Assembly: GCA_025276375.1 (NCBI GenBank) | Contig: GCA_025276375.1_3645.1 | Source of the DNA: a phage | Length of the DNA: 59,223 nt | Direction: 5' to 3' (one strand) | Part shown: positions 5,140 to 21,919 of the stretch, in pieces | How positions within the stretch are numbered: the first letter of the stretch is position 1 | How the letters are laid out: every line of letters starts with the position of its first letter | Translations under genes and position numbers: made by a program | The notes under the pieces: generated by a model | What the model was told of the DNA's origin: nothing | What the model saw: the letters and a program-made list of their open reading frames with translations, nothing else | Database searches by the model: none

Positions 5140-5165
5140 GCCCCGCTTCGGCGGGGTTTATTTTT
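5140..5165 (+). terminator. intrinsic terminator, GCCCCGC-UUCG-GCGGGG hairpin plus U-tract
   Basis: perfect 6-7 bp GC stem, UUCG tetraloop, followed by TTTATTTTT, 9 nt after stop of gpJ-like gene. Confidence 0.8.
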
Positions 5166-5174
5166 ATGCTCAGA

Positions 5175-5203
5175 TTGACTATTGTTACAAAATTTGGTAA
5201 AAT
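5175..5203 (+). promoter_or_regulatory. sigma70-like promoter TTGACT-N17-TAAAAT
   Basis: -35 at 5175-5180, 17-nt spacer, -10 at 5198-5203; upstream of baseplate-J-like gene. Confidence 0.5.
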
Positions 5204-5236
5204 ACCTTGTAGAGATTTTCATACCGGAGGAGTGAC

Positions 5237-6738: not shown

Positions 6739-7425
6739 ATGGCAGAGATTAAGTCGGATGTTAACCACATCCACACTCTGCCAGATTTTGTTCAGGGAGG
6801 TCTTGACTACCTACCTGGAGATTTTCTGGCTGAGAAGGTTAATTTAGTCACATTCTTAACCGTATACCTTAAAAGGTTGGAGGATGTTGATAAGATGCTG
6901 GTAGGTTTGGCTGAAGGAAGATTGCTTAACAATGCCAGCGGAAGATACCTTGACGAAGTTGGTAATCAACTTGGTATTCTTAGGAATGGACTTTCAGATG
7001 CTGATTTTCGTGCCACACTAATTATTCAGCAGGCCGCAGCATCAAGGGGCGGGACTCGCGAAGATGTCATCTCCACCTTGCGACAATTGTTCGGAAGAGA
7101 CAATTTCGATACGTGGAAAGGAGACAACTTCAGGTTTGACATAAATATTAGAAAAACTTGCTTTGACATATTGCAGTCTATCGATCAGATCTTAGATATG
7201 CTACCATTGCCTTGTCATTTGCGTCTTACAGAATCGCAAGGGCAAGCTTTTGGTTTTGAAGGGGACTCTACAGCTCTTGGCTTCGGATCGGTGTGGGAAG
7301 AAAACCAATTCGGAGTTGGTGGGCTGGCTACTTTGCTGTATGTTCCTGACGTAAGACCTGATTGGGACACCACAACCATTTATTGTGAAAGTATTACAGT
7401 AAACGCAACTAGACAGGAGGGTTAA
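6739..7425 (+). CDS. tail/baseplate protein (possible P2 gpI-like)
   Basis: follows baseplate-J-like gene; 228 aa; weak similarity by recall only. Confidence 0.3.
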   Translation: MAEIKSDVNHIHTLPDFVQGGLDYLPGDFLAEKVNLVTFLTVYLKRLEDVDKMLVGLAEGRLLNNASGRYLDEVGNQLGILRNGLSDADFRATLIIQQAAASRGGTREDVISTLRQLFGRDNFDTWKGDNFRFDINIRKTCFDILQSIDQILDMLPLPCHLRLTESQGQAFGFEGDSTALGFGSVWEENQFGVGGLATLLYVPDVRPDWDTTTIYCESITVNATRQEG

Positions 7426-9497
7426 TGGCAACAGCTGTTTTTAAACCTTACCGTGATTACTCTACAATGGCTGCACAGTTTCATTACCGAACAGTTCAGG
7501 ATACTGCCGTTCCTGGTAGGGATTATAATCATGTTGAGGGCGATGTAACTATCCCAATTGGGGCAACCAGTATTGAAATCCCAGTGGAAATTGTTGACAA
7601 ATTACCCAACAGGTTACCAAGAAGCTTCTTTATGGAGTTTTCATCAAAATCTCAAGGGGTGATGATTGGGACACAAAGGGCAAAATGTACAATAGTTTCA
7701 GATGAGAATCTTGACAGGATATCTTGGGATACTGTTGAGGAGAAAATGTTTCACCCAAGATATTGGGTTACAAATACTCAGCAGACTGAAAGTACCTGTA
7801 TTGTTGCAGATGACAACTGTTGTATTAACCGTTTAGTGTCAAGAACATATGGAGGTATGGCTGGGTGCATTTGGGAAACAGTTGACAAGTATGACCATTT
7901 CGGTATTGGGTTTGATGATCACTATGAGATGAGAAACACCAAGCTTTGGTTCAGAATGTCAATAACCAATGCCAGCAACTTCTCCACCCCTGAAAAGATG
8001 ATTATGACTGTAGACCTTGTCGATGGCACAATCATCTATGTTCCTTTAGCTCAATATGCTGTCAGCATCTCAGAGGATAAGAATGTTGCAGAAATTCATA
8101 TTGATTTTGAGGACTGCGTCGGGATGGACCAGAACAACAACATGATGGGTGTTGATCCTCGGCAGGTTAGAAGGATTTTAATACCACTCATGCCTAAAGA
8201 CTGGGTAAGTAATAGCACAGACCCGAGAACGGAAAATGTAGAGTGTGAGTTGCGCCTAGATTTGCTTCAGCCAGACACAGGCTGGAAAATGATGCAACTT
8301 AACAATATTCAGGTGAGAGAGCACGACGTTGGGATCTGCACTGCATATGACGATATGTGGAACGTATCCCCTTTAAGGGTGTTGAACAATATCAAGCGTC
8401 TGGGCTATACCGGAACCATAAACCATTATGTTGGTATGAGTCATTATTATGACTACACGTGGTCAGGAACCCAATGGTCTATAAACAGAACAGGGGCGCT
8501 AAACGCTGCAGCTTATAAATGGCATGATGATTTTATGTACAATGCCAAACGACATAACTTCGACGTTATGCAGTCTGTAAGTTTTGAGCTTTACAGCGAT
8601 GCCTGCCCGTTGGAATGGACCCAAAGAGACTGGAACGATAACTACGCTAAAACAGGGTATACACCTTGTAGCTACCTCCTGTCTCCAACCATTGAAGAGG
8701 GTATGAATTTCCTTACTGCAGTATTTAAGAATTTTGCATCAGCCGCTATGAGAAACAACCTGCCAGTGATTATGCAGGTTGGTGAACCGTGGTGGTGGTA
8801 CAATACCGATACTCGTAGACCTTGTATTTATGATTACCCTACAAAACAGGCGTTTTATGATGAGACAGGCGAGTATGCATTAGATATTGGGACTATTGAC
8901 GATCCTAAAACTGGCGGTGTTTACGATAAGTATGTAGCATTTTGTCGTGGTAAGCTTGGCGCTCGTATTGCGGCTATTTCAAAGGCAATAAAGGCACACG
9001 CTGCATCAGCTCAGATGACAGCTCTGCTGTTTTTCCCAACCATTATGGAAACCGAGCTTACGCAAAAGCTTAACCTTGCTGACCAATATAAAAAGGAAGC
9101 AGGTGCTCTTGATTTCTTCTGCACCGAGTGCTACGATTGGGTGATGCAGGGAGGTATTGAAAAGGCAAAAGAGTCTGTAAACATACCTATCGTTAAGTTA
9201 GGTTGGCAACCGTCTGAAATACAATACCTTGCAGGGTTCGTTCCTAGTAAAGAGCTTGCTCCGGTATATGGCTACGACCCAACCAGGAATTACCAAGAAT
9301 TTTTATGGAGATGTATTTGCGGAAACATGGCAACTATAGAGTATAGATACCCTGAGGTAAAACAGTATGTGTGGGCATACCCGCAAGTAATGTCTGACAG
9401 CATCACTGTTACCGCTAGAGATTCTACCGTGCTTCATATGGGGCAGGTTGCTCTGAAAGGGTATGTAGAAGATGTTGTCCCGCCAGACTTCTCATAA
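7425..9497 (+). CDS. tail-associated protein with Calx-beta-like N-terminal segment
   Basis: AGGAGG SD; 'DYNHVEGDVTIPIGATSIEIPVEIVD' resembles Calx-beta; aromatic-rich central region suggests a carbohydrate-active fold (unverified). Confidence 0.3.
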   Translation: MATAVFKPYRDYSTMAAQFHYRTVQDTAVPGRDYNHVEGDVTIPIGATSIEIPVEIVDKLPNRLPRSFFMEFSSKSQGVMIGTQRAKCTIVSDENLDRISWDTVEEKMFHPRYWVTNTQQTESTCIVADDNCCINRLVSRTYGGMAGCIWETVDKYDHFGIGFDDHYEMRNTKLWFRMSITNASNFSTPEKMIMTVDLVDGTIIYVPLAQYAVSISEDKNVAEIHIDFEDCVGMDQNNNMMGVDPRQVRRILIPLMPKDWVSNSTDPRTENVECELRLDLLQPDTGWKMMQLNNIQVREHDVGICTAYDDMWNVSPLRVLNNIKRLGYTGTINHYVGMSHYYDYTWSGTQWSINRTGALNAAAYKWHDDFMYNAKRHNFDVMQSVSFELYSDACPLEWTQRDWNDNYAKTGYTPCSYLLSPTIEEGMNFLTAVFKNFASAAMRNNLPVIMQVGEPWWWYNTDTRRPCIYDYPTKQAFYDETGEYALDIGTIDDPKTGGVYDKYVAFCRGKLGARIAAISKAIKAHAASAQMTALLFFPTIMETELTQKLNLADQYKKEAGALDFFCTECYDWVMQGGIEKAKESVNIPIVKLGWQPSEIQYLAGFVPSKELAPVYGYDPTRNYQEFLWRCICGNMATIEYRYPEVKQYVWAYPQVMSDSITVTARDSTVLHMGQVALKGYVEDVVPPDFS

Positions 9498-9509: not shown

Positions 9510-10550
9510 ATGTCAAAACCTAGTTTTCCATTAGAGATTTGGGCAGAGGAGGATCAGGTTCTGCCTAACACCCACAGACAGAACAGGCTACGCCCGATTG
9601 ATGATTTGTGGAGAAAAGGTTGGGATCTTGGTCAAAAGCCCTCATGTGAAGAACTTAACTATATTTTCAATATGCTCGGAACTTGGGCAAAATACATTGC
9701 TGACGAGCAGATCCCCGCTCAAGAAGGCCGTTATCTGGTACGTGATAATAACTTGAGTGATCTTTTGAACATCCCTGTTGCCCGTAGAAACCTTGGGATT
9801 ATTACCAAGGAAGAGGCAGACGCCAGGTATGTAAAAGTTACAGGTGATACAATGACAGGCCCATTGGGTTTGCAACGTATCAACTTTAAAGCTGCCGAGA
9901 CAGATAAGGCTTGGATAGAGACAACTATTGGCCCAGATAAGACAACTCTCGACTTCGGGTTAAGTGATAATATTGGGTCGTTTGATGATGGTGGTACATC
10001 TACAGTAGATGCGTTTCGTTGGAGATTCCAGCCAACTCAGCCGGATATTAATCCAGAGTTCACTTTGATGTACCTTAACGCGATCACGGCTAACCGTGCG
10101 CTGTTGAAAGTGGTCGGCAATGTTGAAGTTGTCGATAACATGAGGTGCAATAACCTTACTATCAGCAATACAGCAACATTCACCAACTGTAATGTGGCTA
10201 GTCAGTTGACGGCTGGGTCAGTATATGTTAATGGTGGTGCAAGTTGTGACAGCATGGTTGTAAGAAGCCAGCACTGTGTTGTCGGTAACAGAAATGTGGT
10301 GCGATCTGTGAACGGAGTTACGGCTAACGGTAACGGTGATGTAACAATCACTATCCCGCAGACAGGTGTGCAAGACATCAGAATCGGTGCAAGACTTGTT
10401 GACGGCGTTTCTGAATCCCCAATTCGCAACGGCTACGTTGTCACAGGCTGGCATTTCGGTGACAAAAAAGAGATGCGTGGTTCAACCTACTGGGCAGGAC
10501 CTTTACAAAAACTTGTAAATGGTCAATGGATCACTGTTAATTATGCATAG
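9510..10550 (+). CDS. side tail fiber protein, copy 1
   Basis: AGGAG SD; paralog of 11565-12608 (shared N-terminus 'P[SV][FI]PL[ED]IWA' and C-terminus 'VNGQWITVNYA'); immediately upstream of Tfa homolog. Confidence 0.6.
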   Translation: MSKPSFPLEIWAEEDQVLPNTHRQNRLRPIDDLWRKGWDLGQKPSCEELNYIFNMLGTWAKYIADEQIPAQEGRYLVRDNNLSDLLNIPVARRNLGIITKEEADARYVKVTGDTMTGPLGLQRINFKAAETDKAWIETTIGPDKTTLDFGLSDNIGSFDDGGTSTVDAFRWRFQPTQPDINPEFTLMYLNAITANRALLKVVGNVEVVDNMRCNNLTISNTATFTNCNVASQLTAGSVYVNGGASCDSMVVRSQHCVVGNRNVVRSVNGVTANGNGDVTITIPQTGVQDIRIGARLVDGVSESPIRNGYVVTGWHFGDKKEMRGSTYWAGPLQKLVNGQWITVNYA

Positions 10551-10564
10551 ATCGGAGGACTAGC

Positions 10565-11149
10565 ATGAAAATACTTCAAGAGTTTAAACTTTACCAACCG
10601 GGATCTGGCGAATACCACGCCAACAAGGAAACCAAAGAGCTGACCCCTCAAGAGGTTGAGGATTACACCGCATACACTGGGTATTTTTTACGTAATGATG
10701 ATGGCGATTGGTATGTGCAGTCACGAACATTACGACAAGAAAATCCGGGTTGTATCTTCCTACTTGTTGACGAGAAGGGAATTCTTAAGACATCTACAGA
10801 AGAACCTGATGCCTTATGGCCTGCTCCAGGTCTTCGTGTGGTTATCGCCAAAAAAGAAGAGGTACCAGAAAACATTATGCTTCACCACGACGCTTTGCGT
10901 TTAGTTGGTGATGAATTTGTCACAGATAATGAATTCTTTGTTCAACAGGCAGAGGGTGTCATAGAGACAGAACTTGCTTGGGCTACTGCTAGAATTGGTG
11001 CCTATCAAGACATGATTGACCTTGAATATGATCTTACTGATGACCAGAAACGTAACATCAGGGATTTGAAAATGTACAGGGTAAAACTTCTTGAAATAGA
11101 TACATCTAAAGCCCCTGACATTTTCTTCCCGGAGCGACCTACCCTCTAA
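10565..11149 (+). CDS. tfa: tail fiber assembly protein (lambda Tfa homolog, 194 aa)
   Basis: C-terminus 'KMYRVKLLEIDTSKAPDIFFPERP' matches lambda Tfa '[24 protein letters not shown]' (from memory); same length as lambda Tfa; follows a fiber gene. Confidence 0.8.
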   Translation: MKILQEFKLYQPGSGEYHANKETKELTPQEVEDYTAYTGYFLRNDDGDWYVQSRTLRQENPGCIFLLVDEKGILKTSTEEPDALWPAPGLRVVIAKKEEVPENIMLHHDALRLVGDEFVTDNEFFVQQAEGVIETELAWATARIGAYQDMIDLEYDLTDDQKRNIRDLKMYRVKLLEIDTSKAPDIFFPERPTL

Positions 11150-11160
11150 GAGGAGGTGTT

Positions 11161-11475
11161 GTGGAGTTGGATTTGGCGGCATTGTACGGTATCTGCATGG
11201 GTACCGTTGTCCCGATCTGTGTATGGGCTTTCAACCAGTGGCACACCAAATGGAAAGGCATTTCCAAGAGGCTGGATGAACTGGAGAAAGACCTCATCTT
11301 AGTGAAAAACAGTATGGTTACAAAAGATAAACTTGATTCCGTTATCGAGACCCGGTTAAGCAAGCTAGAGGCCGATATTAACGACCTTAAGCAGGATGTC
11401 AGGACAGATGTCTCCGGCATCAGAGCTGATGTACAAAAGATTTTGCACATGCTTGTAGAGCATAGTAAAAGGTAA
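11161..11475 (+). CDS. small membrane protein with C-terminal coiled coil
   Basis: GTG start after AAGAGGAGG; hydrophobic helix 'LAALYGICMGTVVPICVWAF' then heptad-rich tail. Confidence 0.4.
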   Translation: MELDLAALYGICMGTVVPICVWAFNQWHTKWKGISKRLDELEKDLILVKNSMVTKDKLDSVIETRLSKLEADINDLKQDVRTDVSGIRADVQKILHMLVEHSKR

Positions 11476-11484
11476 ACAAAGGTC

Positions 11485-11516
11485 AGAACGGAAAGGACTC
11501 CGTTCTTGCATTTTGT
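11485..11516 (+). terminator. intrinsic terminator (AGAACGG/CCGTTCT stem plus U-rich tail)
   Basis: 7-bp stem with 8-nt loop followed by TGCATTTTGTTCTC. Confidence 0.55.
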
Positions 11517-11534
11517 TCTCTAAAGTGTTAAAAT
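11506..11534 (+). promoter_or_regulatory. sigma70-like promoter TTGCAT-N17-TAAAAT
   Basis: -35 at 11506-11511, 17-nt spacer, -10 at 11529-11534; 31 nt upstream of second fiber gene. Confidence 0.5.
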
Positions 11535-11564
11535 AGTCCTAAGGAATTTTCTCAGGAGAACGTG

Positions 11565-12608
11565 ATGACTAAACCAGTTATCCCTCTTGATATTTGGGCC
11601 AATCAGGATGTTGTGCTTGAAAATACGGGAGAGTTGAATAAATCTCAACCAAAAAAAGAAGAGAGATTGAAAGGTTGGGATATGACACAAAGAATGGCAT
11701 GTGAAGTTGTTAACTTTGAACTTCACATGCTTTCTGCGTGGTTGAAGCATTTAACAGAAGATGTTGTCCCAGGATGGGATAATAGATTCTTAAGGGTCAC
11801 TAATAATCTAGCAGACGTTCCAGACAAAGCTGCTGCACGTCAAGTTCTCAATGTATACTCGCCTGAAGAAATGGACGATCTATATGTTGACAAGTCTGGA
11901 GACATAATGACTCAGACTCAAACTTTAGGTCTCCAAAGAATCGAGTTTGCATCTGCGTCAACAGACAATGCGGCAATATATACTACCATAACTCCAGACA
12001 AGACGACGATGGACTTCTGGATTATGGACAACATCGGTGGTGCTGACGGCACAGACCTTGATGATCCTTCTCACCAAATAGATGGGTTCCGTTGGAGATT
12101 TCAACCTTCTGGTGGGCAGCCTGTGTTTTCGGCTATGAAGCTCAATGCTATAACTGCCAACCGTGCAAGACTGGCTATCCAAGGAAATCTTGAATGCAAC
12201 GATGCAAAAAGTTCCTCTGCAAATGCTAATGCGGTAACGATACCTAGAGCCACTGTTAATGGACAACAATCCTGCGGCAGCGCTCAAATAGGCGGAAGAG
12301 TAGATTGTAACGATAAAACCGCCAGGGGTCAATATGCAACAGTTGGTGGAAGAAACGTGGTCCGCAGGGTAAATGGTAGTAGCGCAGACAGTAGTGGTAA
12401 CCTTACTATTCCTATGCCTAGTAGGGGTGTTGAAGATGTAAGGATAGCAAACCGTTTCAGAACCACCTACAGAGAATCAAGAGTATACCCTGGGCATGTA
12501 ATGTGCTCCGGCAATTACGCCTATAAACACCCGTATCAGGGCGACTATTGGACTGGAGCCATTCAAAAATTTGTAAATGGTCAATGGATCACTATATCTT
12601 ATGCTTAA
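11565..12608 (+). CDS. side tail fiber protein, copy 2 (paralog)
   Basis: ATG 11565 after AGGAG; paralog of 9510-10550 with divergent central region and near-identical termini ('VNGQWITISYA'). Confidence 0.6.
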   Translation: MTKPVIPLDIWANQDVVLENTGELNKSQPKKEERLKGWDMTQRMACEVVNFELHMLSAWLKHLTEDVVPGWDNRFLRVTNNLADVPDKAAARQVLNVYSPEEMDDLYVDKSGDIMTQTQTLGLQRIEFASASTDNAAIYTTITPDKTTMDFWIMDNIGGADGTDLDDPSHQIDGFRWRFQPSGGQPVFSAMKLNAITANRARLAIQGNLECNDAKSSSANANAVTIPRATVNGQQSCGSAQIGGRVDCNDKTARGQYATVGGRNVVRRVNGSSADSSGNLTIPMPSRGVEDVRIANRFRTTYRESRVYPGHVMCSGNYAYKHPYQGDYWTGAIQKFVNGQWITISYA

Positions 12609-12619: not shown

Positions 12620-12886
12620 ATGAAACTAACTCAGTTTTTATGGGGACTGGTTGCGGCATCTGATGACCCTACGAAAGTGTCCCAATCTAAGCTATGGTCG
12701 AATATAGGCATGGCGGTGATGACTGGGGTGTTTATTCATATGGGGTATAATGATACGCTTCCGGAATGGTATGCGTGGATATACGCACCTTCAGTAGCCT
12801 GCCCCCAGCTTATTAGCAAATTCATCTCGCTCCGGTGGGGTTGCCAGCACCCTGACCACGTTAAAAACGAAGAGCAAAAAGCTTAA
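12620..12886 (+). CDS. hypothetical protein (88 aa)
   Basis: ATG with AGAGGG SD; one hydrophobic segment. Confidence 0.35.
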   Translation: MKLTQFLWGLVAASDDPTKVSQSKLWSNIGMAVMTGVFIHMGYNDTLPEWYAWIYAPSVACPQLISKFISLRWGCQHPDHVKNEEQKA

Positions 12887-12895: not shown

Positions 12896-14641
12896 ATGGC
12901 GCAAGACATGACAAGCTTTGAGCAGGCGGTAGATCAAGTAATTGTTGATTCTGAACGTTTGCACCTGATTGTCAACGGTAACGCTGTGGATGAAGTTGTC
13001 GTAGAGGATGGGACCACCATCCCTACGGTACGAAAAGCCATGCTTGACACCCTTTATTTTAAAACGCCACCAATCCCTTGGGCGTATGGTGCATCCACAA
13101 CAGTTTTTAACCAGTTGTATGAGTTTAAAGGGGATACAGGCACTCAGTGGTGGTATGCCCCAGCAGCATCAAAATCTAACCCGGTTAGGATGCCAGCAGA
13201 TCCTTCACAATCTCCGAACTGGAGATTATATACCGATTCTGCTGTAATGGCAAAATACTACGCAAAACTTAACAGCCCAAGGTTCGAAGGTGACCCGCGA
13301 GCACCTACACCTCCAATGGACGATAAGTCTGAGTCCATAGCAAACACAGAGTTTGTTGTTGACTATGTGGATAGTATATTCAAAGCCATGGAGGGGATGA
13401 AAGTAACTGTAGGGTCTTTGGTAGTAAAAGGTCTTACAGAACTGGCTAACACCATAGTTGGTGGCACCCTTACCATACACGGGCCTGTTAATGGAGCGGA
13501 TTCTACTGCACGCTTCAGGAACCTAATCCTTACTGCAAATACTTCTACACTAACTTTTGCGTGGAGCGATCCTAAGCATGCAGACTGGAGAAGCACAGAG
13601 CTGCAACCTCATGAAGTATCCACCCACAGAGTTATAGCCGACACTATAACTTCTGGGAAACCAGTGGCTAATAACAACGATGTACATTTTGACGGTCTAG
13701 GTAATAACTTTTTTGACTACGTGTACATTCGTGGTAATGCCATGAAGGCAGCAACCGAACCGACATTGCAGGTCGATGGGACCACTAGGGTTAAGAACCT
13801 TGAGGTGACAGGTACCGTTACAGGGATAACCTACTCTGTCGATGGCACCATGATCTACCCTAGCTATATTGAAAGCACGGGTGACGCATTAATAAATGGT
13901 GATTTGGAGGTTGGCGGGTCTGTAGTTATTCGAGGTACGGCCTCTATCCAAAACATAGCTCTGAATACTCTCAGAGTCAATGAGCGTGCAACTTTTGAAG
14001 GGGAAGGGCTTACAGCCAACAAAGGTGTAATTACCGAGCTGACAACCACCACTTTAACTGCAACAACTGCAAACTCTGAAAACTGCAACGTTACCAGAAA
14101 CTTGCAGGTAAATGGGGATGTTAGTTTAAACGCAGCAGGTACGGGCACCACCTACCTTCACAACCTTGAAATATCCGGCACAGTGACTGGTTGGCTGCCA
14201 GACTTCTCTAATGTCAACTTTGTCTGTAATGGTATTAACTCTAGTGGTAAGATAACCACCTCTCAAGAAATTGAGGCTGGTAAAACCATCACTGCCCCTA
14301 CTTTCCACGCAGGGAAGGTAGATTTCGATTTAGAGGAGGTTGACGCGTCCAGTGGGACATGGACACCTAACGGGCAGGCCAGTATGTATGTTGTCCACGC
14401 TAAAGGGGATTTTACAATAGGCCAATGGCCTGGAACATCGGCTGAAGATAAACCTTACCCGTTTACTGCAATCATCTATGTCATTCAAGATGCCGTAGGC
14501 CACAACGTGACTTTGCACGATAAATATGCCATACTGTCGGCTACCCCTGTTATTAACAACAAAGCCAACAGCGTCACCTTGCTACAATTGACATATTGTG
14601 GTGTTGGTGATATCGTAGATGTGGTTATTGCACAACGTTAA
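12896..14641 (+). CDS. tail fiber / tailspike-like protein (581 aa)
   Basis: AAGGAG SD; Thr/Gly/Asn-rich beta-strand repeats typical of fiber shafts. Confidence 0.45.
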   Translation: MAQDMTSFEQAVDQVIVDSERLHLIVNGNAVDEVVVEDGTTIPTVRKAMLDTLYFKTPPIPWAYGASTTVFNQLYEFKGDTGTQWWYAPAASKSNPVRMPADPSQSPNWRLYTDSAVMAKYYAKLNSPRFEGDPRAPTPPMDDKSESIANTEFVVDYVDSIFKAMEGMKVTVGSLVVKGLTELANTIVGGTLTIHGPVNGADSTARFRNLILTANTSTLTFAWSDPKHADWRSTELQPHEVSTHRVIADTITSGKPVANNNDVHFDGLGNNFFDYVYIRGNAMKAATEPTLQVDGTTRVKNLEVTGTVTGITYSVDGTMIYPSYIESTGDALINGDLEVGGSVVIRGTASIQNIALNTLRVNERATFEGEGLTANKGVITELTTTTLTATTANSENCNVTRNLQVNGDVSLNAAGTGTTYLHNLEISGTVTGWLPDFSNVNFVCNGINSSGKITTSQEIEAGKTITAPTFHAGKVDFDLEEVDASSGTWTPNGQASMYVVHAKGDFTIGQWPGTSAEDKPYPFTAIIYVIQDAVGHNVTLHDKYAILSATPVINNKANSVTLLQLTYCGVGDIVDVVIAQR

Positions 14642-14650
14642 TATATCTGA

Positions 14651-14675
14651 CCGCTCCTGACGGGGCGGTTTTCTT
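14651..14675 (+). terminator. intrinsic terminator (CCGCUCC-UGAC-GGGGCGG plus UUUUCUU)
   Basis: 7-bp stem including one G-U pair, 4-nt loop, T-tract. Confidence 0.6.
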
Positions 14676-14689: not shown

Positions 14690-17600
14690 ATGCTTCCAAT
14701 CCCTTTGCTAAAACTTGGTCGTCATTTCCTCGATAAGAGGGGTGGAGTTAAGGAACTTGCTGTTCTGTCATACCCAATAGACAACAGTGACGGTACAAGC
14801 ACTACAGTGCCATATGTAAATAGCTTAGCCATACTTTTTGACGACGGTCAACTCAATATTACAGGTTACAACAGGTTCGGGGAGTGCAGGACTGGAGATC
14901 TTGACACGATAAACTACCCAAATGAGGCTGCCTGGAACGTTGATCATGTGTGGAGAGCAGACCGTGCGTTTGTGATCCGAACTTTTGATAATCAGTTTTT
15001 CTACATCGGCTGCACTGCAGGGCTTATTGGATCTGATGCTGCAGGTGGTAATGATGTTTGTGTAAGGGAGTGGACACCTCTTCCTGAACAGATTGTTAAA
15101 GGGTTGCACCTTGACACCCACCCGGAGCGCCTTGTTGAGGTGATGGGTGGTATTAACAACACTGTCTGGGTTATTGCAGAGGCAGAAGGCACAGGCATAC
15201 TGAATCTGTATGGGTCTGGTAACAACACCTACGGATCTTTGCATGTAGATAAAAATCAGCATGCAACCCCTGTAAAGATCGGTGAGACATCGGAAAATCC
15301 TGAAACAGGCCCTTGGAAAAACCCAAGCATTAACTGCGAGGTGCATGACAACTCTGTTATTTTCGGTGGTCCTAGAGGTTTCTGGATTGCTGGATACGAC
15401 TTTCTGAGAAATAACAGTAGAAACGACCTTGTTTGGCCTCCTGTGCAGATTACTCGTAACGATTTGAGGGGCATTCCTGCAGATGAGGAGTGGAAAGGGT
15501 TTATGTGCGGTCCTAACGGGGCAATAATTGCCACACAGAGGATGCATAGACCCGATGACCAGCAGCTTGTTAACGTATTTTATGGTCAAAACATTTGGGG
15601 AGATGATACATGGCGGGAACTGAATATCACCTACACCCATGAGGTAATAATGGCTCGTGGGTACGGCACAAGTGGCATTTTCTTCAATAATGGCACCAAG
15701 CAGTATCGTGGATTCTCTCGCAACTTGTGTAATGATATTGGTGCACAATCTGCAAACAATAGTCCTAGGTCCGATTTTATCCACTATCAAGCTCTTGCTA
15801 CAGCTAAATATGTTGAGCAACGCCTGCCAGTTAGCTGGACAGAGAGTGTTTATTTCCAAGGCATCCACAGAGAAGGTTTCTTAGGTACCTTTACTGTTGT
15901 TAATGGTAAACTTTGGTGGTCAGGTATCCCAAGGGGAAGTTTTACAGGATCTAATAACCTCTTTGGCGGCAGACTTAACAGCCAAGGGTTCACAGAGATT
16001 CCGGAGAATTGGTATAAAAATGTCCCGGTAGACAGTTGGGGTGTTGAGGATATTTTCGACGTTAACGGTGTTAGCAGCGTTAGCAATATTTACATTGGTG
16101 ACACGGTCAAGATGAAATTGAAGCCTCAGCCAGAGGGGGCTACGTTCATTATTGACAAGATTGAACTGGTAAATGCTGCAGGCACGGTTGTTACAGATGC
16201 AAACTATCAGTTCTCCACTAACTGGAACCATGGTGGGGCCAATGAAGTTGTTGTCACCCAGTATAACAGAAATGTTAACAGACGTGGCCTGTACTCTGTA
16301 AAAATAACCTATCATGACAAGCATGGCACAGGCAGAACCCATACGACAAGGACTTTGAACTGGAACACCATAGTTCCTGCGTACCCGTCTGATGGTAAAT
16401 GGCATACTGTCGGTAGAAACAAACAGTTCCATGTTAATGATACTGTATACTTTGGGCTGAATGGGACCCAGCCTGCAGTAGAAGGGGATACATCGTATAT
16501 GGTCAGACTCCACAGAATGGATGCTGGATCAGTCACTTATGATGTGACCCAAGAGATCTACGATCAAAGACGCGCCACGTATGACAATATTGTGAAAACA
16601 CAAGCCTTGTGGGAGTTCAATCCTAATGGCAAGGGTGGTAAAATGTTGCAGGTTAATGAGCAGAACGGAACGTCGTTGACTGTTCACGAACACCCAGACC
16701 CTTGGCCTGATCCTGGAAAACCTCACCCAGGAGCTCGTACACTGAAAATTGTCAGCCATGATGCAGGGTATTTCGGAATACGCTGGGAAGCTACAGTAAG
16801 ATATGTCGACGGGACAACAAACAACATAGGGATTACACTTGGCGGCACTAGTGAAGATAACTCGCTGAAAATTGCCTACACGCCTAGAGGTATCTCTATT
16901 GATAATATGGATGTTGTTCGCAATGGTTACGGCGATGTGAATGTAAAAGTTACTCTTGGCGAACATCTTGGTGGGGAAAGGATCATCATGTATGCCTTTG
17001 ATCATGATCCACGCACCAATGGAACTTATGCAAATCAGGCATGGAGTTACCTGATAAATGCACCTGAGCCGAATACTAAAGAGTTCTACTATGGTATGAA
17101 GCGAGATGTGTGCAAGAAAACAGGAACACATGACTGGATTGCTATCTGCGTTAAAGATGAGCGCACAGCTTGGGATGAGCCTGTTAACAGATGGTTCATA
17201 GGTATTCCTACCAGAAGTGATAAGTATGTCGCAGAATATATTGTATGCATGGGCGGTACCAACCTAAACATGTGTTGGAACGAAGATGTAAACAAATACT
17301 CTGATTATGACTATATGAGGGATTACTCTTGTAATTTGTGGTTTAACCAAACTACAGGTTACCCTCCAAGACAGGCGAGAGTAAACCCTGCAATCTTCAC
17401 AGACACGCAGGTTTTCTTGACAAAACAGGCCAACGAGGTTCAGACCTTCAAGAATAAATACGATCCTAACAAGTGGTTCTACAACTGTTACGGCGCATTT
17501 TTCTGGGGACCTGGTGAACTGCCTGACAGCGGTTCTTGCTTCGAGGCTGCAACCTACGGCAGCGACTATATTATGGGACAGGTCAAGAAGTACAAGATGA

Positions 17601-19759
17601 TCCCAGGGCCTGAAACTTTAGGTAACGCTGTTGACCCATACATAAATTTCTCAGCTTTGCATGCGAATATGGATGGTGCGAGGTATCCGTTCGACGTTCC
17701 AGTTGCCTATGGATACAGACGTGTCGTGATGATTATTAAATGCGATCTGATCGGGAAGCAAGTTCTTGCAGAAAACGGAACATCCACACATCCTTTTGAA
17801 GTTGCTCTGCACTACCAGTTTGCAGACTCACCATATGCAGGGGATAAAAGAATCTCCGACACAGACTCCAAGCGCTGTAAGAAAGTTTTACTTGGAGCCG
17901 GGTGGTGGTGGTACGAGTTTGATTTGACAGATAAGTTCACAGATGATACCAAAACTCTCACAGGTATCCGTCTGGACCTTGGTGAAAACATGCACAAAGC
18001 TGTTTGTGATGGCACCTACGGTGATCCTACAGTATACTTGAAGTATGTTTCTTTTGAGCATCCGGAAGATGTTGTCTACGGTCCAAAACTGAGATTGTTT
18101 GGCAGCTGGATTGCAAAAGATAGGGTAGGCATGGGTAAGAAGGTAAGAGGGTTCTTGGTTGATGCAGGAACAGAAGACATGCTGGTTAATGCAGTATGGC
18201 CTGAATTACCTGGGACTCAGTGGGACAACTCAGCCAAATCTATAAACTGGTTTAACATTCATAGGGCCATGTGGACCACTAACTGCTACTTGTGGAGAGA
18301 GCTTAACGATTTAGGCAGAAGGATGGCGATCATTTGCTGGACAACATTGCAAAGATGTTATGACCATGACTACGAGATTGGCGGTAGAGCATGGAAAGAT
18401 ATCAGAGATAGGGTTATATACAATTTTGCAGACGACAACGGTGGTGGAGCATATAACTTTGGCACAAGCCGACTCATCCATTTGAACGGATCCTCAGCCT
18501 ACAAGAAAGAAGGTTACTCCGGGTCCATGATCGAGTGGGGTCTGGTGAAAGATGCTCGTGTATTGATGGGCCAGCAACTTGCTGCTGCAATAGGTCCTAG
18601 TGCAGTGCAGTCTGCTAAACCAGCGTGGTTCGATATCCCATTATGGTCCTCTGGAACACCAGGAGCTGCTGCAATCAACCCTACCACTGAGGATCTAGAA
18701 ATCTCCTGGGAAGACCTGAAGCAGGTCGGTGGTTGGGACAAAACAGGGTATCAGGTTCAATGGTGGAGGGCTGACGGATCTTTAGCCGCTGATGAGTTTG
18801 TTAAGGACAATTTCTACACCATGTCCTCTGCAAAAGCACAGCAATTGTTCGGACAGGCTACTCCGTCAACAATCACCATGTCTATGTGCTGTAAAGACAA
18901 CAGAACTGGAGCTCTGGGGCCAAGGGTTGCTAAAGTTTTCTCAGGTATTAAATGGAGTCTACCTGTCCAAAGTATTTCATGGAAGCAAATAGGTGATAAC
19001 AAGCTGCTGGTTACCCCTGCCTGTCAGTTCAACGCAACTCTTAACGTTGATCCTGCTGTTGCGGCAAACTCAGCTAAAGCTTCTGACTTCTCTGTGTCTA
19101 ACACTGCTATGGCAGATGTGAGGAAGATTGACACACTGAACGCCAGAATTACCTGTAAAAACACTTATGGCACATTCCAAATCATCAACAACTTCACAGA
19201 TGCTGATTCTAAGGTAGTAAGGACAGCAAGCCAGACTCTGAGTTTAGGGACTCTGGCCTATGCGGCCCTGATCACCGAACAGTCGGCAACACTCCAAGGA
19301 GGCGGTGTAGGCAAGTCCATTGCAACACCTGTGTGGAAGCCGAATGAGTGGGTTGTGTTTGATTTGACTGTGGACTTCTCCAGTGATAATAACTGGACAT
19401 GGGTAAGGAATTGTTTGTCACAGTTGATGGGCGGTCCAAGCTCCGTTAGTGATAGTCACGACTCTACTGACCCGAGTGTGTTCCAGGTAGGTAAAACTCA
19501 CCCAGAGACTGGAGAAACGTTGCCTGACAGGAAGTATGCGTTGGTTTGCATCTCTTACGGGAAGGCAGATGTCACCTTCTCAGGGACACACACTTATAAC
19601 GGAACCTACAATTTCTCAAGGAAGTATAGTCTCAAAGCAGGGAACATTATAGACGAGGTTGGTGCACTGTATAATCCTGGTAACGGCATAGGGATTGTGG
19701 GCGGTAAACTGCAGATGCAGGAACCTTCTATTACCCCCTTCCAACGTATCTGGGATTAG
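14690..19759 (+). CDS. large tail fiber / structural protein (1689 aa) with N-terminal RCC1-like repeats
   Basis: GGAG SD; 'YGSGNNTYGSLHVD'-type repeats at N-terminus; size and position in tail module. Confidence 0.5.
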   Translation: MLPIPLLKLGRHFLDKRGGVKELAVLSYPIDNSDGTSTTVPYVNSLAILFDDGQLNITGYNRFGECRTGDLDTINYPNEAAWNVDHVWRADRAFVIRTFDNQFFYIGCTAGLIGSDAAGGNDVCVREWTPLPEQIVKGLHLDTHPERLVEVMGGINNTVWVIAEAEGTGILNLYGSGNNTYGSLHVDKNQHATPVKIGETSENPETGPWKNPSINCEVHDNSVIFGGPRGFWIAGYDFLRNNSRNDLVWPPVQITRNDLRGIPADEEWKGFMCGPNGAIIATQRMHRPDDQQLVNVFYGQNIWGDDTWRELNITYTHEVIMARGYGTSGIFFNNGTKQYRGFSRNLCNDIGAQSANNSPRSDFIHYQALATAKYVEQRLPVSWTESVYFQGIHREGFLGTFTVVNGKLWWSGIPRGSFTGSNNLFGGRLNSQGFTEIPENWYKNVPVDSWGVEDIFDVNGVSSVSNIYIGDTVKMKLKPQPEGATFIIDKIELVNAAGTVVTDANYQFSTNWNHGGANEVVVTQYNRNVNRRGLYSVKITYHDKHGTGRTHTTRTLNWNTIVPAYPSDGKWHTVGRNKQFHVNDTVYFGLNGTQPAVEGDTSYMVRLHRMDAGSVTYDVTQEIYDQRRATYDNIVKTQALWEFNPNGKGGKMLQVNEQNGTSLTVHEHPDPWPDPGKPHPGARTLKIVSHDAGYFGIRWEATVRYVDGTTNNIGITLGGTSEDNSLKIAYTPRGISIDNMDVVRNGYGDVNVKVTLGEHLGGERIIMYAFDHDPRTNGTYANQAWSYLINAPEPNTKEFYYGMKRDVCKKTGTHDWIAICVKDERTAWDEPVNRWFIGIPTRSDKYVAEYIVCMGGTNLNMCWNEDVNKYSDYDYMRDYSCNLWFNQTTGYPPRQARVNPAIFTDTQVFLTKQANEVQTFKNKYDPNKWFYNCYGAFFWGPGELPDSGSCFEAATYGSDYIMGQVKKYKMIPGPETLGNAVDPYINFSALHANMDGARYPFDVPVAYGYRRVVMIIKCDLIGKQVLAENGTSTHPFEVALHYQFADSPYAGDKRISDTDSKRCKKVLLGAGWWWYEFDLTDKFTDDTKTLTGIRLDLGENMHKAVCDGTYGDPTVYLKYVSFEHPEDVVYGPKLRLFGSWIAKDRVGMGKKVRGFLVDAGTEDMLVNAVWPELPGTQWDNSAKSINWFNIHRAMWTTNCYLWRELNDLGRRMAIICWTTLQRCYDHDYEIGGRAWKDIRDRVIYNFADDNGGGAYNFGTSRLIHLNGSSAYKKEGYSGSMIEWGLVKDARVLMGQQLAAAIGPSAVQSAKPAWFDIPLWSSGTPGAAAINPTTEDLEISWEDLKQVGGWDKTGYQVQWWRADGSLAADEFVKDNFYTMSSAKAQQLFGQATPSTITMSMCCKDNRTGALGPRVAKVFSGIKWSLPVQSISWKQIGDNKLLVTPACQFNATLNVDPAVAANSAKASDFSVSNTAMADVRKIDTLNARITCKNTYGTFQIINNFTDADSKVVRTASQTLSLGTLAYAALITEQSATLQGGGVGKSIATPVWKPNEWVVFDLTVDFSSDNNWTWVRNCLSQLMGGPSSVSDSHDSTDPSVFQVGKTHPETGETLPDRKYALVCISYGKADVTFSGTHTYNGTYNFSRKYSLKAGNIIDEVGALYNPGNGIGIVGGKLQMQEPSITPFQRIWD

Positions 19760-20300
19760 AAAGACTTGGGAAAGTAGCAATACCAACGTTGCAACAGTGG
19801 ATGCCACCACAGGACTGGTAACATTTAAAGCTACTGGGAATGTTACCATAAAGTTTGTAGTTACAGATGATGCAGGCCGCAAAACGTCTTCAACATCGTT
19901 TACTGTCAGACAGATGGCACCTCAGTGGTTTATTTGGGAAGGAAATCCTCTTGACGGGGCTTACCCTAGACCTGCAGGAACGTCCAATATGAGGGTCTTT
20001 ACCGGTCCGGTCATGGACAATCCGACCACAACCACCAACCCTACATTTTTTGGTGCTTACATACCTGAAATTATTGGCCTACCAAGGAACCAGATACAAC
20101 TGCTTTTCGGAGCAGGTGTTGATGGCCTAGCCACTTTTGGGTACAGTGACAACATTGATGCAGCCAGAAGCTCGGGTTGGATTGGATTTAAGTTCCAGTG
20201 GAACCCTGGTGGTAGAACATTAGGTCTTGCAAGCATAGGTGTTATGCTACCTGGTAACCAGCAATACCATCTCGAAGCTTATACAAACTTCCCTAGTTAA
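19695..20300 (+). CDS. Big_2 (bacterial Ig-like) domain ORF in the +1 frame overlapping the 3' end of the 1689-aa gene
   Basis: 'WESSNTNVATVDATTGLVTFKATGNVTIKFVVTDDAGRKTSSTSFTV' is a Big_2 signature; no SD or ATG start, only TTG at 19695. Confidence 0.4.
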   Translation: MWAVNCRCRNLLLPPSNVSGIRKTWESSNTNVATVDATTGLVTFKATGNVTIKFVVTDDAGRKTSSTSFTVRQMAPQWFIWEGNPLDGAYPRPAGTSNMRVFTGPVMDNPTTTTNPTFFGAYIPEIIGLPRNQIQLLFGAGVDGLATFGYSDNIDAARSSGWIGFKFQWNPGGRTLGLASIGVMLPGNQQYHLEAYTNFPS

Positions 20301-20310
20301 CAGGAGGCAA

Positions 20311-20343
20311 ATAAAAAGGGGCCGTTTGGCCCCTTTCTTTTTA
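20311..20343. terminator. bidirectional intrinsic terminator between convergent units
   Basis: AAAAA-GGGGCC-GTTT-GGCCCC-TTTCTTTTT: perfect 6-bp GC stem with A-run on the 5' side and T-run on the 3' side. Confidence 0.8.
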
Positions 20344-20346
20344 TAA

Positions 20347-20547
20347 TTAGTAATATTCCCAACACGACCCATCTTCAGACGGCTGGACACGCTTACCTTT
20401 ATGGTCAACATAGGTATAGCCACAACCTTCACAAATAACAGGTGCCGCATAACCTTCCTTCCACTGCTTCTCCGTGATCAATCCTTTCAGATCTCCGCAG
20501 TCACGACCAAACAACTCTTCAGAACAGTCTTTACAAAAATCAGCCAT
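20347..20547 (-). CDS. small zinc-ribbon protein (66 aa)
   Basis: GGAG SD; two CxxC pairs ('CKDC', 'CEGC'). Confidence 0.45.
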   Translation of the reverse strand: MADFCKDCSEELFGRDCGDLKGLITEKQWKEGYAAPVICEGCGYTYVDHKGKRVQPSEDGSCWEYY

Positions 20548-20613
20548 CTCTATCAGTCTCCATATTTAACCAATCTATATTACATATTGCCGAAGAAACA
20601 GTATTTCATTTCA

Positions 20614-20832
20614 TCACAGATCTCCAACAACTTCCCAAATACCCCAGTGAGCATCTACATCCTTGATAAAGTATCTTTCTCCACGGTTTGTCCACACACC
20701 TACCCCAACTTTACCATCTATCCCATTGTATACATCTGCCTCATACTCTTTGCCCGGTGTAAAGTGTACACCCATCATAAGGGCTGTTATTCCGTTAGGA
20801 TTTTTAAATTTAACAAATTTTACTTTGCTCAT
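20614..20832 (-). CDS. hypothetical protein (72 aa)
   Basis: ATG with AAGGA SD. Confidence 0.45.
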   Translation of the reverse strand: MSKVKFVKFKNPNGITALMMGVHFTPGKEYEADVYNGIDGKVGVGVWTNRGERYFIKDVDAHWGIWEVVGDL

Positions 20833-20833
20833 A

Positions 20834-21163
20834 TTACTTAATCCTTGCAGTTACAGTAGCGCTATACCCCATATAGTTATGAGACATAAAGAATGTAAGC
20901 CCTTTAAGTTCAGGATTCTTTCTAAGAAATCGTTTCAATTTTCGAATGCAATTAACACCATGATCATAGTTTGAGAAATTAAATTTAATACCCTGCTCCA
21001 TCATAGTGCACACTTCTTCATGGGTATGCCATTGTCTATCGTGGTCACAAAACCAGTAACCAATACCTTCTTTTTCTTGGATATGCAACCCCCAAAATAC
21101 TTTATGCATTGGATATTTTGGTTTTCTACCATGATAATGTAGTTTAATATTCACATGTGCCAT
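20834..21163 (-). CDS. hypothetical protein (109 aa)
   Basis: ATG with GGAG SD; His/Cys-rich. Confidence 0.45.
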   Translation of the reverse strand: MAHVNIKLHYHGRKPKYPMHKVFWGLHIQEKEGIGYWFCDHDRQWHTHEEVCTMMEQGIKFNFSNYDHGVNCIRKLKRFLRKNPELKGLTFFMSHNYMGYSATVTARIK

Positions 21164-21196
21164 TTTTTGTTACTCCGTTCTGTATCTGTGATAATG

Positions 21197-21713: not shown

Positions 21714-21733
21714 TTAATCAGTCTCCATCTAGA

Positions 21734-21904: not shown

Positions 21905-21919
21905 TTCGCCTCATGGCTC

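What the first reader, a model, noticed from the sequence alone, without database searches (positions are those of the whole stretch)
9510..12608. Duplicated side-tail-fiber cassette with a lambda Tfa homolog between the two paralogs
Two fiber genes (9510-10550 and 11565-12608) share N-terminal and C-terminal ends ('YWAGPLQKLVNGQWITVNYA' versus 'YWTGAIQKFVNGQWITISYA') but differ in the central region. Between them lie a clear Tfa homolog and a small membrane/coiled-coil protein, and the second copy has its own terminator and promoter (11485-11534). This looks like an acquired or duplicated receptor-binding module, possibly giving two receptor specificities served by one chaperone.
Basis: seen in the sequence. 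Interest (0 to 1): 0.5.

Follow-up and report, generated by a model that had tools for sequence, protein, structure and literature searches.

The report
Two paralogous short tail fibers, one chaperone
This stretch of an rV5-like E. coli phage encodes two related baseplate short tail fibers with a single fiber-assembly chaperone between them; the arrangement is real but was already described for phage rV5 in 2013 and 2021.

Summary
The window is a Vequintavirus (rV5-like myophage), 98-99.6% identical to published genomes. ORFs 9510-10550 and 11565-12608 are rV5 gp33 and gp30. They are 43% identical over their full length (E 2e-95). Between them lie a Caudo_TAP chaperone (gp32) and a one-TM coiled-coil protein (gp31).

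Kropinski 2013 and Maffei 2021 already reported the two paralogs, the chaperone, the homology to Mu GpS/GpU, a late promoter before gp30, and the idea of two LPS specificities. The finding is therefore already known.

- These are baseplate short fibers of the phi92 gp147 / phiTE STF / Mu S family, not lambda-type side fibers.
- The central shaft is the best-conserved part. The variable parts are aa 205-250, aa 293-325 and the N-terminal docking domain.

Added here:
- Fiber 1 holds the ancestral position. Fiber 2 sits where single-fiber relatives carry a 4-TM gene.
- Fiber 2 arrives with a hairpin (5 of 8 pairs covary across three lineages) and a conserved TAAAATA late-promoter core.
- The duplication looks in-lineage (bootstrap 83%; no donor lineage found).
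- Fiber 2 departs at otherwise invariant docking residues.
- In one lineage both fiber tips are identical, alongside a diverged chaperone.

Receptor specificities, how the chaperone is used, and baseplate placement remain untested.

The parts
5195..5204 (+). Late-promoter-like motif TGGTAAAATA (rV5 P036) upstream of the wedge gene. Inferred start of the transcription unit that contains fiber 1, Tfa and gp31. A strong terminator hairpin precedes it at about 5140-5167.
   Evidence: Motif search. The sequence at 5170-5215 equals rV5 P036 in Table S4 of PMC3606486.
9510..10550 (+). Short tail fiber 1 (rV5 gp33, 346 aa). It is the positional orthologue of the single short fiber of PVP-SE1 and of phi92-like phages.
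   Evidence: ORF. phrog_4465, E 9e-172. N-terminal aa 1-108 match phiTE STF 9cuy, E 1.4e-19, and C-terminal aa 286-343 match Mu S 5yvq. Synteny with PVP-SE1 and PHB05.
9510..9719 (+). Fiber 1 N-terminal wedge-docking domain (aa 1-70). It is 66% identical to PVP-SE1 STF and carries the family motif RPIDDLW.
   Evidence: The phiTE structure places residues 3-92 on wedge 1.
10122..10259 (+). Fiber 1 variable segment aa 205-250. It is 20% identical to fiber 2 and 50% identical between lineages.
10338..10547 (+). Fiber 1 distal domain of the Mu S type (aa 277-346). It includes the variable patch aa 293-325 and the conserved last 21 aa. Inferred to be the Tfa-binding and receptor-proximal tip.
   Evidence: Profile match to 5yvq S residues 438-503 and to 8ju3. 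Foldseek hit to 5yvq_A, E 6.5e-7.
10565..11149 (+). Tail fiber assembly protein (rV5 gp32, 194 aa). It is the only Tfa-like gene in the genome.
   Evidence: PF02413, 45.8 bits. phrog_136, E 2e-36. One place per complete genome. No paralog in the window.
11161..11475 (+). gp31, 104 aa, with an N-terminal TM segment and a coiled-coil-like remainder. Function unknown. It is conserved directly after the Tfa gene in three phage groups.
   Evidence: phrog_5345. Hydropathy. rV5 annotation '1 TMD'. 31-33% identity to the PVP-SE1 and PHB05 counterparts.
11485..11506 (+). Terminator-like hairpin with an 8-bp stem and loop AAGGAC, followed by TTGCATTTTGTT.
   Evidence: Scan. Free energy -16 kcal/mol, z -3.2. 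Across three lineages 83% of cells pair and 5 of 8 pairs change on both sides; slid controls give at most 47% paired and at most one such pair.
11526..11535 (+). Late-promoter-like core TGTTAAAATA, inside rV5 P030 (11511-11547).
   Evidence: Identical to P030 in Table S4C of PMC3606486. TG(T/C)TAAAATA is conserved in L005 and L009.
11565..12608 (+). Short tail fiber 2 (rV5 gp30, 347 aa). This is the derived paralog. It was inserted between the gp31-like and gp29-like genes.
   Evidence: ORF. phrog_4465, E 2e-165. 43% identical to fiber 1. Synteny.
11565..11774 (+). Fiber 2 N-terminal domain (aa 1-70). It departs at 11-13 of 29 family-conserved columns, for example RPIDDLW becomes QPKKEER.
12399..12605 (+). 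Fiber 2 distal domain. The tip is derived (RFRTTYRESRVYPGHVMCSGNYAYKHPYQGD...) but the last 21 aa are 67% identical to fiber 1.
   Evidence: The 63-nt 3' ends are 79% identical at DNA level.
12620..12886 (+). gp29, an 88-aa small membrane protein. It is in the same inferred transcription unit as fiber 2.
   Evidence: phrog_1322. 53% identical to PVP-SE1 gp041.
12896..14641 (+). gp28, 581 aa. It belongs to the family of the phiTE long tail fiber and lies downstream of fiber 2 in the same inferred unit.
   Evidence: PF26208 and PF26209 on the orthologues. phrog_4549.
14649..14670 (+). Intrinsic terminator (rV5 t028). It ends the inferred gp30-gp29-gp28 unit.
   Evidence: Scan. The sequence equals t028 in Table S4D.

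Best explanation
The region is the short-tail-fiber module of an rV5-like myophage.

Fiber 1 (gp33) is the ancestral baseplate short fiber, of the same family as phi92 fiber III (gp147), the phiTE short fiber and Mu S. Its N-terminal roughly 90 residues dock a trimer onto the baseplate wedge. Its C-terminal roughly 70 residues form a Mu-S-type tip. That tip is folded and capped by the Tfa-family chaperone gp32, encoded next to it.

Fiber 2 (gp30) arose by duplication of this gene in the ancestor of Vequintavirus. It was placed three genes downstream, behind a hairpin and a phage late promoter. It is therefore transcribed with gp29 and the long-fiber homolog gp28.

Fiber 2 kept the shaft and the extreme C-terminus, but it changed many otherwise invariant residues of the docking domain and, in the rV5 lineage, the sub-terminal tip patch.

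Shown here: paralogy, domain homologies, synteny, a single Tfa gene, conservation and covariation of the regulatory elements, and purifying selection on both copies.

Inferred: both fibers are in the same virion, the single Tfa matures both through the conserved C-terminal end, fiber 2 docks differently from fiber 1, and the two tips differ in LPS-core specificity in the rV5 lineage.
For: - Identity of the phage and its genes.
- Paralogy.
- Domain homologies.
- phi92 gene 147 belongs to the same family and is fiber III, docked under the wedge.
- The phiTE short fiber docks on wedge 1 through residues 3-92.
- Tfa family membership and single copy.
- Copy number is two in about 116 Vequintavirus genomes and one in related genera.
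- Ancestral layout in PVP-SE1, L011 and PHB05. The same seven-gene layout occurs in two further diverged lineages.
- Fiber 1 and fiber 2 are monophyletic in 250 of 300 bootstraps. No closer outside relative of fiber 2 appears among 5.8 billion proteins or 1.84 billion representatives.
- Hairpin covariation and conserved promoter core. P030 was predicted in rV5.
- Fiber 2-specific changes sit at conserved docking residues.
- In L009 the two tips are 82-100% identical while the Tfa is 47% identical to the window's.
- dN is 0.09 for fiber 1 and 0.17 for fiber 2, with synonymous sites saturated.
- The literature reports gp30, gp32 and gp33 in rV5 virions, and the Tfa and fiber in PVP-SE1 virions.
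- Mu Tfa stays bound to the fiber tip.
Against: - The stored rV5 mass spectrometry table lacks all 12 gp30, gp32 and gp33 peptides I searched, so incorporation rests on statements in two papers.
- Fiber 2 alone gives no significant sequence hit to Mu S.
- AlphaFold2 monomer models are poor (pLDDT 65 and 58), so the variable patches could not be mapped onto a structure.
- phiTE offers one wedge-1 docking site per protomer, which leaves the placement of a second short fiber unexplained.
- All tested Vequintavirinae need the same LPS glucose, and the paralogs show little allelic variation. This argues against strongly different specificities.
- Bootstrap support for duplication is moderate (83%) and comes from neighbour joining only.
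Confidence: 0.7

Rival explanations
1. Redundancy or avidity rather than a second specificity. Both fibers bind the same conserved LPS-core glucose, and the duplication only raises the number or robustness of short fibers.
For: All tested Vequintavirinae fail on waaC and waaG mutants, and the paralogs show no notable allelic variation. In lineage L009 the two distal tips are 82-100% identical.
Against: In the window and L005 lineages the sub-terminal tip patch (aa 293-325) is only 22% identical between paralogs. Fiber 1 keeps the ancestral motif shared with PVP-SE1 and phi92-like phages. Segment 205-250 differs in all lineages.
Confidence: 0.3
2. Fiber 2 does not use gp32. It folds alone or with another factor such as the adjacent small proteins gp29 or gp31. 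On this view the conserved C-terminal end reflects structure, not chaperone binding.
For: In Mu each fiber variant (S, S') has its own Tfa. Fiber 2 lies in a different inferred transcription unit from gp32. Its tip patch differs from that of fiber 1.
Against: There is only one Tfa-family gene per genome. gp29 and gp31 also exist in single-fiber relatives, so they are not specific to fiber 2. The last 21 aa stay 67-100% identical between paralogs in all three lineages.
Confidence: 0.2
3. Fiber 2 was imported from another phage lineage by horizontal transfer as a hairpin-promoter-gene cassette, rather than duplicated in place.
For: It arrives with its own regulatory elements at a site occupied by an unrelated gene in relatives. 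In the N-terminal domain fiber 1 is closer to PVP-SE1 (66%) than to fiber 2 (40%). 50 of 300 bootstraps do not join the paralogs.
Against: The shaft and the extreme C-terminus are more similar between the paralogs than to any outgroup. After its own orthologues, fiber 2's best hits in both large searches are the fiber 1 proteins. Base composition is uniform across the region.
Confidence: 0.12
4. Fiber 2 is a decaying or non-structural copy that is not incorporated into virions.
For: The peptide-level rV5 mass spectrometry table held here contains no gp30 peptides. Fiber 2 evolves about 1.8 times faster than fiber 1 at non-synonymous sites.
Against: The ORF is intact in about 116 genomes and in three lineages down to 47% identity. 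All family-invariant residues are kept. dN is far below the saturated dS. The promoter is conserved. Two papers list gp30 among virion proteins.
Confidence: 0.05

Closest known systems
Escherichia phage rV5 gp33-gp32-gp31-gp30 (Kropinski et al. 2013, PMC3606486)
   Same: It is the same locus at about 98% DNA identity, with the same gene lengths (346, 194, 104 and 347 aa). That paper already reported 42.3% identity between the paralogs, predicted the late promoter P030, and suggested that two LPS chemotypes are recognised.
   Different: Nothing substantive differs. That paper linked the fibers to T4 gp12 by HHpred and listed no terminator between genes 31 and 30.
BASEL Vequintavirus 'short tail fiber' paralogs plus chaperone (Maffei et al. 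2021, PMC8594841, S5D Fig)
   Same: The genes are the same. The paper states explicitly that there are two paralogous short fibers plus a chaperone, homologous to the single fiber of phi92-like phages and to Mu GpS/GpU.
   Different: The paper stresses the lack of allelic variation. Here, metagenomic lineages with 73-87% (fiber 1) and 47-77% (fiber 2) identity were found.
phi92 fiber III (gp147; PMC13450770)
   Same: It is the same protein family and sits in the same genomic position after the wedge genes, followed by a Tfa and a gp31-like gene. It is a downward-pointing baseplate fiber proposed to mediate irreversible binding and to trigger contraction.
   Different: phi92 has a single copy. 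It is about 29% identical to fiber 1 overall.
phiTE short tail fiber (PDB 9cuy/9mjn; PMC11972413)
   Same: The N-terminal roughly 90 residues are homologous (profile domain E 1e-28), and the extreme C-terminus is also related. The surrounding gene block is syntenic.
   Different: The phiTE fiber is 554 aa, with a predicted coiled coil and Ig-rich distal part, and the phage is flagellotropic.
Mu tail fiber S with chaperone U (PDB 5yvq), and the alternative S'/U' set
   Same: The distal C-terminal domain is homologous. A Tfa-family chaperone is encoded directly downstream, and the Mu Tfa stays on the mature fiber.
   Different: Mu carries two alternative fiber-plus-chaperone pairs, switched by inversion of the G segment. 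Here both fibers lie in the same orientation, there is no inverted repeat, and there is only one chaperone.
T4 gp12 short tail fiber
   Same: It is a functional analogue: a baseplate short fiber that binds the LPS core and is linked to the contraction trigger.
   Different: No sequence or profile match to gp12 was recovered here. T4 uses gp57A, not a Tfa-family chaperone (knowledge of the T4 system).

Membership tests
Tfa / Caudo_TAP tail fiber assembly proteins (PF02413; lambda Tfa, P2 G, Mu U) | The conserved C-terminal domain matches the family profile above the curated cutoff. | tested here: met
   PF02413, 45.8 bits against a cutoff of 22.1, residues 121-192. phrog_136, E 2e-36.
Tfa / Caudo_TAP tail fiber assembly proteins (PF02413; lambda Tfa, P2 G, Mu U) | The gene lies directly downstream of the fiber gene it serves. 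| tested here: met
   The gene starts 15 nt after the fiber 1 stop codon. The order is the same in PVP-SE1, PHB05, L005, L009 and L011. It is not adjacent to fiber 2.
Tfa / Caudo_TAP tail fiber assembly proteins (PF02413; lambda Tfa, P2 G, Mu U) | Modular build: a variable N-terminal fiber-binding domain and a more conserved C-terminal domain. | tested here: met
   N-terminal versus C-terminal identity: 74% vs 84% (L005), 44% vs 52% (L009), 31% vs 44% (PVP-SE1).
Tfa / Caudo_TAP tail fiber assembly proteins (PF02413; lambda Tfa, P2 G, Mu U) | The protein binds the fiber tip and is needed for folding of the fiber trimer. | not testable with these tools
   This needs co-expression or a multimer prediction.
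Baseplate short tail fiber of the phi92 gp147 / phiTE STF / Mu S type (phrog_4465) | The N-terminal domain is homologous to the wedge-docking N-terminus of the phiTE short fiber. | tested here: met
   Fiber 1 E 1.4e-19, fiber 2 E 1.8e-08, family profile E 1.8e-35 against 9cuy. Fiber 2 departs at many conserved positions.
Baseplate short tail fiber of the phi92 gp147 / phiTE STF / Mu S type (phrog_4465) | The distal C-terminal domain is homologous to the Mu S tip. | tested here: met
   Fiber 1 E 1.7e-06 and profile E 1e-10 to 5yvq, plus a hit to 8ju3. Foldseek 5yvq_A, E 6.5e-7. Fiber 2 alone gives no significant hit, but it aligns to fiber 1 through this domain.
Baseplate short tail fiber of the phi92 gp147 / phiTE STF / Mu S type (phrog_4465) | The gene follows the baseplate wedge genes. 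| tested here: met
   This is met for fiber 1, with the extra gene gp34 in between. Fiber 2 is displaced three genes downstream.
Baseplate short tail fiber of the phi92 gp147 / phiTE STF / Mu S type (phrog_4465) | The protein is a trimeric fiber present on the virion baseplate. | not testable with these tools
   The monomer models are poor. Virion presence is only reported in the literature and could not be verified at peptide level.
T4 gp12-type short tail fiber | Sequence or profile similarity to gp12. | tested here: not met
   No gp12 chain appears among PDB hits for either protein or for the family profile. The HHpred link was not reproduced.
Invertible alternative fiber cassettes (Mu G segment, P1 C segment) | Inverted repeats flank the alternative fiber and chaperone genes, with a nearby invertase. 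| tested here: not met
   Both fibers are on the same strand. Only short, weak inverted repeats of 14-18 nt were found. No ORF in the region is annotated as an invertase.
Lambda-type side tail fiber (Stf) | A fiber attached to the side of a siphovirus tail tip, with an Stf-type N-terminus. | tested here: not met
   The phage is a myovirus. The N-terminus matches a baseplate-wedge-docking domain. Lambda Stf itself was not compared directly.

The most novel reading that the evidence does not exclude
Fiber 2 has remodelled its N-terminal docking domain so that it occupies a baseplate site different from the wedge-1 site used by fiber 1. rV5-like phages would then carry an additional, fourth set of fibers: two kinds of short fiber in one virion. 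The single Tfa must fit both tips, which constrains the extreme C-termini of the two paralogs to co-evolve with it. They are 100% identical in lineage L009, beside a 47%-diverged Tfa.
Probability: 0.3. Interest if true: 0.5.

Novelty: already known. Interest (0 to 1): 0.28.

Why it matters
rV5-like phages are common, broad-host-range candidates for therapy and biocontrol, and their short fibers probably decide irreversible binding and trigger contraction. The two-fiber arrangement itself is published, so the finding adds little on its own.

Open questions that this analysis sharpens:
- Where does the second short fiber sit on a baseplate that offers one canonical docking site per wedge?
- Can one chaperone mature two different tips?
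- Do the derived tip and the aa 205-250 segment of fiber 2 give a second LPS-core specificity?

Answers would guide host-range engineering in this phage group.

Tried and rejected
- I searched the stored rV5 mass spectrometry table for 12 tryptic peptides of gp30, gp32 and gp33 and found none. Virion presence could therefore not be verified at peptide level.
- AlphaFold2 monomer models of both fibers were of low confidence. I used only the single significant Foldseek hit.
- NCBIfam gave no hits for any of the five proteins. PADLOC gave only a coiled-coil noise hit for gp31.
- The E. coli O177 'proteomics' paper turned out to be in silico only.
- North and Davidson 2021 (PMC7811200) is not held, so the Mu fiber-Tfa interface residues could not be compared.
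- My first hairpin pair count was mis-registered by one column and was redone.
- dS is saturated between lineages, so exact dN/dS values could not be given for the fibers.
- Rejected: a Mu G-segment-type inversion switch, recent gene conversion as the cause of the identical L009 tips (nucleotide identity 0.80, third-position identity 0.56), a T4 gp12 relationship at sequence level, and a sigma-70 promoter at 11485-11534.


Full report
**What the window is.** A 4-kb query around the finding matches 117 phage records. 114 of them cover at least 80% of the query, at 95-99.6% identity, and all are rV5-like myoviruses of the genus Vequintavirus. Curated relatives annotate the region as short tail fiber, tail fiber chaperone, hypothetical protein, short tail fiber, hypothetical protein, lateral tail fiber. 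By gene lengths and order the ORFs are rV5 gp33 (9510-10550), gp32 (10565-11149), gp31 (11161-11475), gp30 (11565-12608), gp29 (12620-12886) and gp28 (12896-14641).

**Checking the observation.**
- Both fiber ORFs, the quoted C-terminal peptides, the Tfa homolog and the small hydrophobic coiled-coil-like protein are present as described.
- The two fibers are 43% identical across their whole length (E 2e-95), and both match phrog_4465 end to end.
The best-conserved block is the central shaft, aa 119-204 (61%). Next come aa 251-292 (52%) and the last 21 residues (67%).
- The divergent parts are aa 205-250 (20%), aa 293-325 (22%) and much of the first 100 residues.
- At DNA level the genes are only 51% identical. 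The longest shared exact stretch is 23 nt at the 3' end.

**The terminator and promoter.**
- 11485-11506 is an 8-bp hairpin followed by a T-rich tract. Its free energy is -16 kcal/mol with z -3.2.
- 11511-11547 is identical to the putative late promoter P030 that Kropinski et al. derived for rV5. No sigma-70-type site lies there.
- I found two diverged lineages with the same gene layout in metagenomes, L005-L008 and L009. In them the stem sequence differs but still pairs: 83% of cells are paired, and 5 of 8 pairs change on both sides. Slid controls give at most 47% paired and at most one such pair.
- The loop AAGGA(C/A), the downstream TTGCATTTT and the core TG(T/C)TAAAATA are conserved in sequence.
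- Together with P036 at 5195-5204 and terminator t028 at 14649-14670, this suggests two late transcription units: gp36 to gp31, and gp30-gp29-gp28. That split is inferred, not measured.

**What the proteins are.**
- The N-terminal roughly 90 residues of both fibers match the short tail fiber of phage phiTE (PDB 9cuy): fiber 1 E 1.4e-19, fiber 2 E 1.8e-08, family profile E 1.8e-35. In the phiTE structure residues 3-92 form the joint that attaches to the wedge 1 protein.
- The C-terminal roughly 70 residues match the tip of Mu tail fiber S, which was crystallised with its chaperone (5yvq), and also the S/S' chimera 8ju3.
- The only significant Foldseek hit of the otherwise poor monomer model is 5yvq.
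- The phi92-like outgroup fiber I used is 99.4% identical to phi92 gene 147. A 2026 cryo-EM study identifies gp147 as fiber III: six trimers under the wedge, pointing down, proposed to mediate irreversible binding and to trigger contraction.
- These are therefore baseplate short fibers, not lambda-type side fibers.
- gp32 passes the Pfam Caudo_TAP threshold. It is the only such gene in the window and in every complete Vequintavirus genome sampled.

**Origin of the second copy.**
- All of about 116 Vequintavirus genomes have two copies. Seunavirus (PVP-SE1), GAP31, the related Klebsiella myoviruses and phi92-like or phAPEC8-like phages have one.
- In PVP-SE1 and a related metagenomic phage the order is wedge genes, fiber, Tfa, gp31-like, a 4-TM gene (PF26221), gp29-like, gp28-like. 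There is no intergenic gap after the gp31-like gene.
- In Vequintavirus the hairpin, the late promoter and fiber 2 take the place of the 4-TM gene. Fiber 1 is thus the positional orthologue, and fiber 2 is the added copy.
- With the phi92-like fiber as outgroup, fiber 1 and fiber 2 group together in 250 of 300 neighbour-joining bootstraps.
- After its own orthologues, fiber 2's best matches in a word-indexed search of 5.8 billion proteins and in an exhaustive search of 1.84 billion representatives are the fiber 1 proteins.
- I therefore favour an in-lineage duplication over import, with moderate confidence.

**How the copies diverged.**
- Between the window and L005, non-synonymous divergence is 0.09 for fiber 1 and 0.17 for fiber 2, while synonymous sites are saturated. 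Both copies are under purifying selection, and fiber 2 evolves faster.
- Of 74 alignment columns that are at least 85% conserved among 25 fiber-1-type and single-copy sequences, the three fiber 2 sequences depart at 17-23. Most other sequences depart at 0-6.
- 11-13 of these departures fall within the 29 conserved columns of the N-terminal 70 residues. For example, the motif RPIDDLW becomes QPKKEER. The shaft keeps nearly all conserved residues.
- phiTE shows one wedge-1 docking site per protomer. A changed docking surface would let both fibers coexist, but this is inference.
- At the other end, fiber 1 of all lineages, the PVP-SE1 fiber and the phi92-like fiber share a tip motif (GVSES..GYV.TGW.FG.KKE.RG..YW..PLQ). 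Fiber 2 of the window and of L005 has a derived sequence there.
- In L009, by contrast, fiber 2 carries the fiber-1-type tip. It is 82% and then 100% identical to its own fiber 1, although the DNA is only 80% identical there and the L009 Tfa is just 47% identical to the window's.
- The extreme C-terminus staying alike in both paralogs in every lineage fits a single chaperone that must recognise both. In Mu the variable N-terminal domain of Tfa binds the distal fiber, and the chaperone remains on the virion.

**What is already published.**
- Kropinski et al. 2013 reported gp30 and gp33 as similarly sized fiber proteins with 42.3% identity. [quoted passage not shown]
- Maffei et al. 2021 wrote that Vequintavirinae sensu stricto encode two paralogous short tail fibers and a chaperone homologous to the single fiber of phi92-like phages and to Mu GpS/GpU. 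[quoted passage not shown]
- A later comparison table again lists rV5 gp30, gp32 and gp33, and PVP-SE1 gp044 and gp045, as virion proteins.
- I could not confirm this at peptide level. The stored rV5 table lacks all 12 peptides I tried.

- the insertion site of fiber 2;
- the covarying hairpin and the conserved promoter;
- moderate support for in-lineage duplication;
- the fiber 2-specific remodelling of the docking domain;
- the lineage in which both tips are identical beside a diverged chaperone.

None of these changes the category of the finding, so interest is low to moderate.

Noticed in passing
window 11161-11475; L003 6686-7000; L004 6555-6896: A small protein with an N-terminal TM segment and a coiled-coil-like remainder (rV5 gp31, phrog_5345, function unknown) sits directly after the Tfa gene in Vequintavirus, Seunavirus and phi92-like phages. 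The copies are 31-33% identical. This conserved fiber-Tfa-gp31 trio suggests a role tied to the short fiber, or a membrane or lysis function.
   Followed up: partly
window 12620-12886; L009 3265-3618: The 88-aa membrane protein gp29 (phrog_1322) is conserved between fiber 2 and gp28. It is 53% identical to PVP-SE1 gp041. In lineage L009 it carries an extra acidic, arginine-rich C-terminal tail of about 30 residues.
   Followed up: partly
L003 6997-7470; L011 6958-7431: Single-fiber relatives carry a 157-aa four-TM gene (Pfam PF26221, Phage_phiTE_239) exactly where Vequintavirus has fiber 2. I did not check whether a homolog survives elsewhere in the window's phage.
   Followed up: no
window 11485-11520: The stem of the intergenic hairpin covaries, but its loop AAGGA(C/A) and the following TTGCATTTT are conserved in sequence across three lineages. 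This hints at sequence-specific recognition beyond simple termination.
   Followed up: partly
window 5140-5215: A strong terminator hairpin (GCCCCGCTTCGGCGGGG plus a T-run) is followed at once by the rV5 P036 promoter. P036 has both a TTGACT -35-like element and the late motif TGGTAAAATA. This is the same terminator-then-promoter layout as before fiber 2.
   Followed up: partly
window 14690-19759: The large lateral fiber gene is 1689 aa here, against 1878 aa in rV5 and JohannBauhin. This fits the strong allelic variation reported for this gene in the BASEL paper.
   Followed up: no
window 7425-9497: gp34 (690 aa) has Calx-beta, NCTSP_N and NCTSP TIM-barrel domains, like the N4 gp65-related deacetylase fiber that the literature links to ECA/NGR binding. 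It lies between the wedge genes and fiber 1, whereas in PVP-SE1 the fiber follows the wedge genes directly.
   Followed up: partly
GenBank records MG0656xx: Sixteen records named 'Campylobacter phage', with host Campylobacter jejuni, are about 98% identical to E. coli rV5-like phages over this region. The host labels look doubtful.
   Followed up: no
window about 20000-27000: GC skew turns negative over this block, and ORFs there are annotated on the opposite strand in relatives. This matches the change of transcription direction after rV5 gene 27.
   Followed up: no
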